Shown one piece after another: positions 23,401 through 26,400 of a stretch of 64,000 nucleotides of DNA. The number at the start of each line of letters is the position of its first letter. The first letter of the stretch is position 1. A program made the position numbers. Where the stretch lies: the NCBI GenBank assembly GCA_031459385.1, contig JAVKIP010000003.1, forward strand, positions 64,001 through 128,000, read 5' to 3'. The DNA comes from Candidatus Fervidifonticultor secundus. Its GTDB lineage: Bacteria; Sysuimicrobiota; Sysuimicrobiia; Sysuimicrobiales; Humicultoraceae.

Positions 23401-26400
23401 CTCGATTCTCGAGGGAGCGCTGACCCGGGCCGGGCCCCATCCCCTGCGACTGGGCGACCTGCTCGACGAGACCGCCGAGCGCGGCTTCGGGCTGCTGATG
23501 CTCCTGCTGGGACTGCCCATGCTGATTCCGGTGCTGCCGCCCGGGTCGTCGACCGTCGTGGGCCCCATCTACGCCGTGTTCGCGATCCAGATGCTGCGGG
23601 GCAGCGGCCGGCCCTGGCTGCCCCGGTCGCTGCAGAACCGTACGCTGTCGCCCCGGGCGGTCCAGCTCCTCCGGGACCGCGGGCTGCCCATGATCCGCGC
23701 CATCGAACGGTGGTCGCGGCCGCGCGGCTTCTGGCCGGGCGAGCGGGTCGGTGTGCGCATCGTGGCGGTGGCGATGCTGTTCATGGGCCTGATCCTGCTG
23801 GGTCCGTTTCCGTTCCTGAACACCCCGCCGGCAGTGGCGGTGATGCTGCTGGGGGTAGCCCTGCTCAACCGGGACGTGGTGTTCCTGCTGGCCGGGCTGG
23901 CGGTGGCCGCGGTCTCGGTGGGCATCCTGCTGGTGACCGTCGGCCTGCTGGTGAGCCTGTTGGCGTTCCTGCGGGCGGTGCTCCCCTGATCCGCACGCTC
24001 ACGCGTGCAGCTCGAGCACGTCGCGGTCGCGCAGCACGTGGTCCCGGCCGACCATCTGGCCGTCGTACTCGCCCTGCCGCCACAGCCGCGCGTAGCGCAG
24101 GTGCTCGGCGAAGTCCTTGTGCACGGCCGCCGCGGCGTCCTGCACCGTCGTGCCCGCCGGCAGGATGAAGGGCACGTCCAGGTCGGGTTTCCCACCGGGC
24201 TTCTTGCTGTAGACGCGGATCTTGCCCAGCAGGCGGAACATCTCGCGCCGCAGTTCGCTCAGGTTGACGTCCTGCTCCGCGGAGACGGGCAGCACCGGCA
24301 GGCGCCCGCCGTAGAACTCCTTGAAGATCTCCAGCGCGTCGCGGGCGCCGGGCGCGTCCAGCTTGGCCGCGACGAACAGCCCCGGGGTCTGCCGTGGGCC
24401 GCGGGACGCCTCCGGGGGGATGATCTCGACGCCGCCGGCCGCCAGGAGGGCCAGCACCTGCTCGGTGGACGACAGGAGGTCCGGGTCGGCCAGGTCGACG
24501 ACGACCAGCGCGCCGTCGGCGCCGCGGATCAGCGCGTACAGCCAGCCCTCGGCCACTTCGGGGCTCACCGGCGGCAGGTCCACGAGCTGGATCGGCACGT
24601 CCTCGAACGCCGCCATGCCGGCCAGCGGCACCCGCGTCGTGAAGGGATAATCAGCGATCTCTGGTGAGGCGTTCGTGAGCGCCGCCAGGAGCGACGACTT
24701 CCCCGCATTCGGGCCGCCCACGAGCGCGATCTGACCGGCGCCTTCGCGGTCGACGTGGTAGAAGGGCCGGGCGCGCGCGGCCCCGCGGCGCCGCTGCGTC
24801 TCCTGGCGCAGCCTGGCGATGCGGCGCTTGAGATCGGCCTGCATCTTCTCGGTCCCCTTGTGCTTGGGGATCACGGCCAGCATCTCTTCCAGCGCCGCGA
24901 GCTTGGCCTGGGGCGTGGTGGCCGCTTTGAACTTCCGGTCAGCGGCCAGGTACTCTGGCGTCAGGTTCGCAGGCATAGCGCTGGTTGTTATTGTAGCAAG
25001 CCCGGGAACCCTCACGCGCCGCCGGCCGTTCTCTGGCCGGAGATCCTGCCCATGGAGGTGTCTGCATGCGCACGCTATCGCTCGCTCTGCTGGTGATGGT
25101 GGTCGCCGTCCCCGCCGGGGCTCAGGCACCGGACGTGCGGCCGCCGGACGGCGGCCGGAATCAAATCGTCGCCACAGGCACCGGCCGCCTCGAGGTCGCC
25201 CCCGACCAGGCCACGCTGACGATGGGCGCGCAGGTCCAGCGGCCCACAGCGGCCGAGGCCCTGGCCGAGGCCGGGCGCGTCGCTGCCCAGGTGCGGGCGG
25301 GCTGGCAACAGCTGGGCATCCGGACCGAGGCGATGCGCACTGCGATCCTGGACGTGCAGCCGGTGTTCGGCCAGAGCCGGAACGGCGCCCCGCCGCGCAT
25401 GACCGGGTACCAGGCCACGGCTCTGCTCGCCCTCACCGTGGACCAGCTGGCGCTCCTGGGCCGCGCCATCGACGCCGGGATGACAGCGGGCGCGAACGTG
25501 CTGCACGGCCTGACCTTCGGCGTGCGCGACGCCTCCCGGGCCCGGCGTGACGCTCTGGCCGCGGCTGTGCGCGACGCGCGCGAGCGGGCCGAGGCCATGG
25601 CGCAGGCCGCGGGCCTGCGGATCCGCGGCGTCGAGCGGATCGTGGAAGCCGAGGCAGTGGTCGTGACGCGCGAGGTCAGGCTGCGGGCGGCCGCGGCGCC
25701 GGCAGTGCCGGTCGAGCCCGGCCTCGTGACCGTCACGGCGCAGGTGACGGTGGTCTTCTCCTACTGAACCGTCCGGCGGGCCGGGGCCAGCGCGGACGCG
25801 ACGCGGCCACCCGTCCGGGCGTGTAGACGCCCGGCGACCGCCGCGGGTACGATGAAAGCGAACCCGTCGCCACGCTGTCGAACCCGATCGAGGAGGTGCA
25901 TGGTGAACGTCACGTACGCAGGCCGCAGTGCCGTCCTCCTGGCCCTGGTCGTGGTCCTGGCCGGCGCGGGCCTCGCGCCCGCCGGGCCCGCCGCCCCGCC
26001 GGGGACGCTGCGCATCGCCTACCCGCAGCGGGCGGTCTCCCTCGACGCCCACGGCCCGGCGGCCGCCGAGCGCATCTCGATCATCATCGGCCGCCATCTC
26101 TACGACACCCTGGTGACGTGGGACCCCAAGGCCAAGCAGTTCCAGCCAGCGTTGGCCGAGCGCTGGCGGAGCGTGGATCCCACCACGTGGGAGTTCCAGC
26201 TGCGCCGCGGCGTGCGGTTCCACGACGGCAGCGAGTTCACCTCCGCCGCCGTGAAGACGTCGCTGGAGCGCGTGGTGGCCCTGCGCGGGCCGCTCACGCC
26301 GCTGTTCGCGCCTGTGGCGGCCGTGGACACCCCCGACCCGTACCGCGTCGTGGTCCGGACGCAGACGCCCATGGGCACGCTGCTGTCCAACCTGACGATG

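What a model noticed while it worked through the whole genome (the two positions that open the first line are those of the whole stretch)
23999..24976. A bacterial DRG-family GTPase, shortened by loss of the central insert, is a core gene of the phylum
g1897 is a DRG/Rbg-type GTPase (N-terminal helical domain, G domain, TGS) present in addition to Obg and YchF, although DRGs are described as archaeal and eukaryotic only. It is about 60 aa shorter than archaeal forms because the segment after the G3 region is missing. It belongs to a large family of ~330-aa proteins.
Evidence so far: All five Swiss-Prot hits are DRGs (MJ1326, DRG1, Rbg1; call 174). The best PDB sequence and fold hits are Rbg1 and Rbg2, with a gap of about 60 residues. 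Single copy, 57-92% identical in 5 of 5 relatives from 5 families. An HMM search lists over 100 clusters at 50% identity of ~330 aa, plus 383-392-aa forms, one named from Bathyarchaeia. Obg and YchF are separate genes here.
(Added by a program. Inside this text positions count along the whole contig: contig position 64,001 is position 1 of the stretch shown here. "Call 12" and the like, gene names such as g00115 and contig names such as C1 are that model's own, and its searches are not shown. The text may have been shortened before it was handed on; [...] marks where a part breaks off. The agent that wrote the report below was given it as the finding of a first reader that could run no searches.)

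Follow-up and report, generated by a model that had tools for sequence, protein, structure and literature searches.

The report
Stripped-down DRG-type GTPase in bacteria
This gene encodes a bacterial relative of the ribosome-binding DRG GTPases that reviews call archaeal and eukaryotic only; it lacks the tRNA-touching domain and a normally invariant GTP-sensing glycine, but bacterial members already sit unremarked in gene-family tables.

Summary
Confirmed: window 24976..23999 (-) encodes a 325-aa DRG/Rbg relative (HTH, G domain, TGS). It lacks the ~56-residue S5D2L domain. It occurs in 90 of 94 genomes of its phylum, which is one order, and Obg is a separate gene. It is also near-universal in Bipolaricaulota (58 of 60), patchy in five other phyla, and found under 23 bacterial phylum labels. 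Its nearest kin are a second archaeal subfamily (MPxN/PKHKGT; Thermococci, TACK, many Asgard), not MJ1326/Rbg1. Trees nest the bacterial clade there, but AU tests do not reject a LUCA origin (p 0.16-0.30). DRG reviews say 'not in bacteria', yet supplements of two LUCA papers list bacterial COG1163/K06944 members. Best reading: a stand-alone, ribosome-binding, GTP-binding accessory factor that cannot touch A-site tRNA; hydrolysis is uncertain. This scan found the same family three times before on other DNA. New variant of a known kind.

The parts
23999..24976 (-). Gene for a 325-aa DRG-like (subfamily B, short bacterial form) GTP-binding protein
   Evidence: GC 0.717 against genome 0.719; dN/dS 0.11-0.31 in 8 pairs
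24779..24976 (-). Residues 1-66: extra N-terminal helix (MPANL...) plus helix-turn-helix with the PKHKGT apex; K40 aligns with the second lysine of the DRG KNKAT apex
   Evidence: Helices 7-18, 22-35, 40-63; H39 and K40 invariant in 118 of 118 rows; alignment to Rbg1; median net charge +7 for residues 20-70
24224..24745 (-). Residues 78-251: OBG-type G domain; G1 GGPNAGKS, G2 YPFTT, G4 AKLD, G5 VSA
24569..24580 (-). G3 motif DLPP (proline at the DxxG glycine), followed by a switch II five residues shorter than in other DRGs
   Evidence: DxPP in 118 of 120 close homologues; no DxxG in 105 bacterial loci, 3 unparsed; D-to-R spacing 19 in 54 of 54 bacterial rows against 24 in 25 of 25 canonical rows and 4 of 4 outgroup rows
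24383..24436 (-). Residues 181-198: short loop where S5D2L sits in other DRGs
24002..24223 (-). Residues 252-325: TGS domain
   Evidence: Pfam PF02824 E 1.4e-14; R254, Y256, K258, P269, H286, W299 and E322 at least 90% conserved
24990..24998 (-). Candidate extended -10 promoter element (TGn-TAnAAT) ending 13 nt before the ATG; implies a very short leader with no clear SD
   Evidence: A TAnnnT box preceded by TGn ends 11-13 nt before the ATG in 10 of 12 loci of the same family; the motif occurs 50 times in the 3.3-Mb genome; function inferred
23357..23989 (+). Convergent neighbour, ExoD-family membrane protein; not a partner
   Evidence: PF06055; nearby in 11 of 12 same-family loci and in no locus of another phylum
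25066..25767 (+). Divergent neighbour, SIMPL/DUF541 protein; not a partner
   Evidence: PF04402; shared only within the family

Best explanation
It is a reduced member by descent of the DRG/Rbg lineage (COG1163), from a subfamily 'B' marked by an extra N-terminal helix and a PKHKGT apex; that anatomy is shown. Inferred: it works alone, without a DFRP partner, as an accessory translation factor. It binds GTP and docks at the factor-binding centre of the ribosome, the basic HTH and G domain on the large subunit and TGS on the small subunit, as yeast Rbg1/Rbg2 do. Without S5D2L it cannot clamp the A-site tRNA. Because switch II, the region next to the sarcin-ricin-loop-contacting helix, is shortened and has Pro for the gamma-phosphate glycine, hydrolysis is probably slow or depends on the ribosome. 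It supplements Obg and YchF and does not replace them. History: one entry into bacteria, most likely an old transfer from subfamily-B archaea, then transfer and loss among bacteria with fixation in this phylum and in Bipolaricaulota.
For: Best sequence and Foldseek hits are Rbg1/Rbg2. All DRG forms group against YchF/Ygr210 at 100/99. HTH apex, G1, G2, G4 K and D, and TGS surface residues are conserved across 118-126 diverse homologues. Rbg HTH and G domains contact the 60S and TGS contacts 18S h5, while S5D2L contacts only A-site tRNA (bioRxiv 2020.10.31.363135 and 2020.07.06.190082, passages). Rbg1 without S5D2L keeps GTPase activity, polysome association and function at 30 C (PMC3510508, passages). 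Single copy, purifying selection and 90 of 94 presence. No neighbour shared across phyla. Bacterial rows form one clade (99; 97/94) nested in archaeal B, share an exact 5-aa switch-II deletion, and do not follow bacterial phylogeny: Chloroflexota fall in three places, Planctomycetota in two or more.
Against: No biochemical, ribosome-binding or expression data exist here. G3 fails DxxG in every bacterial locus parsed. TGS has near-zero net charge. The model's whole-protein match to Rbg1 is loose (TM 0.59, rmsd 12.7), and by Z-score other G domains tie with or beat Rbg1. AU tests reject neither archaeal-B monophyly (p 0.30; p 0.16) nor a root on the bacterial stem (p 0.30). The archaeal sister group changes between trees. 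In three trees one bacterial row (L047) left the bacterial clade.
Confidence: 0.6

Rival explanations
1. Pseudo-GTPase: it binds guanine nucleotide and rRNA but no longer hydrolyses or switches, and acts as a scaffold, for example a hibernation, anti-association or assembly factor.
For: G3 Gly is replaced by Pro, Ala or Ser in 102 of 105 bacterial loci; the GKGRG-type switch-II stretch is deleted. DxxG contacts the gamma-phosphate and Mg (PMC3510508, passage). That proline has no backbone NH to donate is established chemistry, from my own knowledge.
Against: G1 K/S, G2 T114 and G3 D133 are invariant or nearly so. Many subfamily-B archaea carry ExPA or DxPP in what appears to be their only DRG, so loss of the glycine need not abolish a housekeeping GTPase role.
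Confidence: 0.22
2. Origin rival (function as in the best explanation): DRG was in LUCA and the bacterial form is a vertical relic lost in most phyla.
For: Single archaea-bacteria split for COG1163 (support 0.62; 83 archaeal, 10 bacterial genes) and for Weiss cluster 1794 (PMC7403611 supplement). LUCA probability 0.75-0.91 for K06944 (PMC11383801 supplement). 23 phylum labels. AU tests do not reject it.
Against: A single split in an unrooted tree is also what one transfer gives. The rooted tree puts the root between subfamilies A and B (81/72, weak) and bacteria inside B behind starred branches (97/92, 100/93). 0 of 200 bootstrap trees keep archaeal B whole. The distribution is patchy and phyla are split.
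Confidence: 0.3
3. Non-ribosomal role: a nucleotide or (p)ppGpp sensor acting on another RNA or protein through TGS and HTH.
For: It has lost both the tRNA-contact domain and the canonical switch II; it has no translation-gene context in the loci examined.
Against: The HTH apex that touches the large subunit in Rbg is the best-conserved motif.
Confidence: 0.12
4. Artefact: archaeal contamination of the assembly, or a decaying transferred gene.
For: The genome is a MAG with 5.5% contamination; a few labelled loci look mis-binned or recently transferred (L052, L027).
Against: GC and GC3 match the neighbours, dN/dS 0.11-0.31; synteny within the family; 90 of 94 genomes; present in isolates of Cupriavidus lacunae and Paraburkholderia hospita.
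Confidence: 0.01

Closest known systems
Yeast Rbg1/Rbg2 and human DRG1/DRG2 (PDB 4a9a, 7rr5, 7nrc); canonical archaeal DRG such as the haloarchaeal 369-aa proteins (subfamily A)
   Same: HTH + OBG-type G domain + TGS in the same order; apex lysine; best sequence and fold hits
   Different: No S5D2L; G3 DxPP against DxPG (95 of 107 A sequences); switch II 5 aa shorter; G1 Asn against Ser; extra N-terminal helix; no DFRP partner found (test inconclusive)
Archaeal subfamily-B DRG (Thermococcus 388-aa 'OBG GTPase family GTP-binding protein'; Bathyarchaeia, Thermoprotei, many Asgard)
   Same: 38% identity end to end, E 4e-79; MPxN start, PKHKGT apex, GxxNxGKS, often no G3 glycine; same clade at 100
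   Different: Archaeal B keeps S5D2L (17 of 18 rows) and a longer switch II. I found no functional study of this subfamily.
COG1163 / KEGG K06944 bacterial members
   Same: Very probably this family: JGI names close hits 'ribosome-interacting GTPase 1'; tables list 10, 14 and 16 bacterial genes
   Different: The tables give counts only; I did not see their sequences, and neither main text mentions the family (no 'GTPase'; no 'DRG' or 'Rbg')
Obg/CgtA, YchF/OLA1, Ygr210
   Same: OBG-family G domain; TGS in YchF and Ygr210
   Different: NCBIfam scores 30-69 bits against cut-offs of 279-406; no Obg fold; Obg and YchF are separate genes in this genome

Membership tests
DRG/Rbg (canonical) | N-terminal HTH with conserved apex lysine | tested here: met
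DRG/Rbg (canonical) | OBG-type G domain with G1, G2, G4 and G5 | tested here: met
   GGPNAGKS, YPFTT, AKLD (Ala for Asn/Thr; K and D kept), VSA
DRG/Rbg (canonical) | G3 DxxG and Gly-rich switch II | tested here: not met
   DLPP; 5-aa deletion in 54 of 54 bacterial rows
DRG/Rbg (canonical) | S5D2L domain between G3 and G4 | tested here: not met
   18-aa loop against 73-77 aa; PF16897 positions 1-56 unmatched
DRG/Rbg (canonical) | C-terminal TGS domain | tested here: met
   PF02824 54 bits, cut-off 22
DRG/Rbg lineage (COG1163) | Groups with DRGs against other OBG subfamilies | tested here: met
   100/99 against 9 YchF/Ygr210 rows; Obg and Nog1 were not in the tree
DRG/Rbg (canonical) | DFRP partner | tested here: inconclusive
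   PF16543 found nothing in G000 but also nothing in the 14 controls; no cross-phylum neighbour
DRG/Rbg (canonical) | GTP hydrolysis and ribosome binding | not testable with these tools
   Needs biochemistry
Obg/CgtA | N-terminal Obg fold; equivalog score | tested here: not met
   59 bits against 280; helical N-terminus
YchF / Ygr210 | Family score over cut-off | tested here: not met
   30 against 279 and 66 against 387 bits

The most novel reading that the evidence does not exclude
DRG splits into two ancient subfamilies, and the unstudied one (B) is the only DRG of many archaea. Its bacterial offshoot is a minimal translation factor that binds the factor-binding centre without an A-site tRNA and uses a rewired, proline-containing switch II, activated by the ribosome or not hydrolysing at all. 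It entered bacteria by one old archaeon-to-bacterium transfer, became core in two phyla, and so appears wrongly in three LUCA gene lists. A second bacterial lineage (309 aa, intact G3) lost S5D2L separately.
Probability: 0.3. Interest if true: 0.75.

Novelty: new variant of a known kind. Interest (0 to 1): 0.55.

Why it matters
Reviews from 2014, 2021 and 2022 and a 2026 preprint treat DRG as archaeal and eukaryotic, and two preprints take Obg as the bacterial counterpart. Bacteria that carry Obg and a true DRG descendant allow that idea to be tested directly. The protein is a natural deletion experiment: what DRG does without S5D2L, DFRP or the G3 glycine. Cultured environmental hosts exist (Cupriavidus lacunae, Paraburkholderia hospita; Thermococcus for the long form). 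It also bears on whether DRG belongs in LUCA lists. Interest is capped because the bacterial presence is already in COG/KEGG annotation and published tables, the origin is unresolved, and no function is shown.

Tried and rejected
A single-sequence fold failed (pLDDT 43.7) and was replaced by an alignment fold (94.6). VIA Z-scores do not single out DRG: GTPBP5 Z 21.3 over 167 residues, rmsd 2.1; Rbg1 Z 18.2 over 241 residues, rmsd 4.6. The AU test on 97 rows with the mixture model never finished; I used 32-row and 46-row sets under LG+G4. The sigma-70 scan found no two-hexamer promoter or terminator. Expression: no RNA holder was listed; the one same-study run gave only partial contigs, none 99% alike, so it says nothing. 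The DFRP search was uninformative. No conserved operon partner among 93 loci. Paper searches: COG1163 + bacteria gave 1 paper (passage, lists it as present in all groups sampled); K06944 0; arCOG00358 0; DRG + S5D2L + bacteria + archaea 6; Obg family/DRG/Ygr210/bacteria/horizontal 11; searches gave nothing on this family; one search supplied the Rbg-ribosome papers. None of the passages read describes the bacterial family. Leipe 2002, Mittenhuber 2001 and Weiss 2016 were not read; subscription papers, preprint supplements, figures and one scanned file of PMC11383801 were not seen and may bear on novelty. PMC9599529 held none of my terms. Rejected: Obg or YchF paralogue, contamination, pseudogene, phylum-specific family.

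Full report
Observation. The ORF at 23999..24976 (minus strand, ATG, 325 aa) is real. It carries MMR_HSR1 and TGS domains and scores far below the cut-offs for Obg, YchF and the archaeal YchF-related family. Its best solved relatives by sequence are Rbg1 and Rbg2, matched in two pieces. An AlphaFold model from a 118-row alignment (pLDDT 94.6, pTM 0.78) shows three N-terminal helices, a G domain and TGS; the top four Foldseek hits are Rbg1 and Rbg2, with a loose overall fit. GC and GC3 match the genome and dN/dS is 0.11-0.31 in 8 pairs. Obg, YchF and HflX are separate genes, and Obg was found in 21 of 21 genomes tested.

What is missing. The lost insert is S5D2L: the aligned segment is 18 aa here and 6-47 aa in 53 other bacterial rows, against 73-77 aa in 42 of 43 archaeal and eukaryotic rows; the exception is a 272-aa Aenigmarchaeota protein. 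Two further changes were not in the finding. G3 reads DLPP: DxPP in 118 of 120 close homologues, and DxPP 79, DxPA 15, DxPS 7, DxAP 1, unparsed 3, DxxG 0 among 105 bacterial loci; canonical DRGs have DxPG in 95 of 107. The distance from the G3 Asp to the conserved Arg is 19 residues in 54 of 54 bacterial rows, and 24 in 25 of 25 canonical and 4 of 4 outgroup rows. G1, G2, the K and D of G4, the HTH apex and several TGS residues are at least 80-100% conserved.

Distribution. In its own phylum 90 of 94 genomes match, 54 of 54 high-quality ones; the four misses are 80-89% complete and include the only genome of family f7. Two positives (G016, G024) are unpublished genomes; the conclusion does not depend on them. 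All 94 belong to one order. NCBI names close hits 'Armatimonadota'; I infer Ca. Sysuimicrobiota (CSP1-3), untested. Profile searches, centre genome excluded and phylum named from the centre's title: Bipolaricaulota 58 of 60, Desulfobacterota 33 of 100, the Rokubacteria phylum 17 of 60, the Pelotomaculum phylum 18 of 150, Planctomycetota 9 of 120, Chloroflexota 7 of 120, Pseudomonadota 0 of 200. Only 10-36 candidates per genome were scored, so misses are 'not found'. 560 clusters at 50% identity score E 1e-30 or better.

Two DRG subfamilies. Subfamily A (eukaryotes, haloarchaea, other archaea, 6 of 30 fetched Asgard loci) has NK[A/S]T, GxPSxGKS and DxPG. Subfamily B has an extra 18-residue N-terminal helix, PKHKGT, usually GxxNxGKS and a variable G3. 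It was the only over-cut-off PF16897 hit in 4 of 5 and 4 of 5 archaeal genomes tested, which were chosen because they hold B, and it made up 12 of 30 fetched Asgard loci, 12 being unparsed. A and B separate at 100. The window protein is 38% identical end to end to a Thermococcus B protein. The only archaeal DRG I saw tested is from Methanosarcina acetivorans; that it is type A is recalled, not checked.

Origin. Bacterial rows form one clade in the 97-row quick tree (54 rows, 99) and the 48-row careful tree (18 rows, 97/94), nested in archaeal B. With 9 YchF/Ygr210 rows on 216 columns the root falls between A and B (81/72) and bacteria sit deep in B beside TACK-type rows, one bacterial row pairing with a Desulfurococcales row. 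Against this, AU tests under LG+G4 reject neither archaeal-B monophyly (p 0.30 and 0.16) nor a root on the bacterial stem (p 0.30). Rows were subsampled by hand: 53 of the 81 named loci and plasmid hit plus 2 relatives were used on the bacterial side, fewer later. Within bacteria some groups hold together (Poribacteria, Nitrospirota, four of five Bacillota rows sampled with Pelotomaculum and Halanaerobiaceae) while Chloroflexota, Planctomycetota and Acidobacteriota are split. I put transfer at about 0.6-0.65 and LUCA inheritance at about 0.3.

Context. No neighbour is shared across phyla; ExoD lies convergently nearby in 11 of 12 same-family loci. A TGn-TAnAAT element ends 11-13 nt before the ATG in 10 of 12 of them, suggesting an own promoter and a very short leader (inferred).

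Mechanism (inferred). In yeast, HTH and G domain bind the large subunit, with helix alpha4 at the sarcin-ricin loop, TGS binds 18S h5, and S5D2L touches only the A-site tRNA (passages). Deleting S5D2L leaves a conditionally active, polysome-bound GTPase, whereas HTH and TGS are essential (passages). The bacterial protein keeps the essential parts and drops the dispensable one, so ribosome binding is the best guess. That alpha4 is the helix after G3 I infer from the helix list in PMC3510508. The altered G3 and switch II leave hydrolysis open.

What is known. PMC8629797 says DRG is absent from bacteria, as does PMC4263083; PMC9545696 lists eukaryotes and archaea; the 2024 and 2026 preprints use Obg as the bacterial counterpart; all seen as passages. 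But the supplement of PMC7403611 lists COG1163 with 83 archaeal and 10 bacterial genes and a single split, and Weiss cluster 1794 with 118 and 14. The supplement of PMC11383801 lists K06944 with 16 bacterial sequences and places it in the stringent LUCA set. The identifiers K06944, PF16897, PF16543 and the two DOIs were recalled and then confirmed by those calls. JGI already annotates homologues as 'ribosome-interacting GTPase 1'. So bacterial presence is known in tables; I found no text describing the family, its losses, the A/B split or its core status. Three earlier notes of this scan report the same family on other DNA; one is marked 'part of it fell', without saying which part.

Verdict. 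A real, conserved, reduced DRG-lineage protein. It is not a canonical DRG, since S5D2L and DxxG fail. New variant of a known kind; interest 0.55.

Noticed in passing
L315:3375-4301 (+); L316-L322: A second bacterial DRG-like family, about 309 aa, also without S5D2L but with an intact G3 (ExPG in 112, DxPG in 2 of 120) and full switch II, and a different HTH apex. Found in 6 of 120 Chloroflexota and 2 of 150 genomes of the Pelotomaculum phylum; named hits are Ktedonobacterales. It forms its own long branch (100/100), not sister to the main bacterial clade; placement uncertain.
   Followed up: partly
L015:3000-3818 (+): A 272-aa Aenigmarchaeota subfamily-B protein lacks S5D2L and more; ESM Atlas lists 295-317-aa clusters dominated by Nanobdellota or Aenigmarchaeota, so S5D2L may have been lost several times.
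   Followed up: partly
L267-L296 (Asgard sample): Most parsed Asgard DRGs are subfamily B; six with high PF16897 scores are the eukaryote-like subfamily A. G122 and G132 have two over-cut-off hits each, not typed. Could bear on which Asgard lineage gave eukaryotes their DRG.
   Followed up: partly
G059, G061, G073, G078: The match splits at residues 183-196 inside one 352-356-aa open frame: a roughly 30-aa loop at the S5D2L site; similar 350-360-aa forms occur among representatives.
   Followed up: no
L013:6001-7017 (+); L084: Close homologues on a 1.2-Mb conjugative Paraburkholderia hospita plasmid and in Cupriavidus lacunae, in a mixed Proteobacteria/Rokubacteria/Acidimicrobiia clade; both have an atypical G1. 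They suggest recent mobility and offer cultured hosts.
   Followed up: partly
L014:1459-2555: The canonical DRG gene in the Natrinema thermotolerans record is frameshifted and unannotated.
   Followed up: no
G000:C2:30903-31874 (-): This genome's Obg has Glu for the G3 Asp (EIPG) and a short C-terminus.
   Followed up: no
window 15519-16931 (+): A long ORF with two ThyX-like halves by eye; not searched.
   Followed up: no
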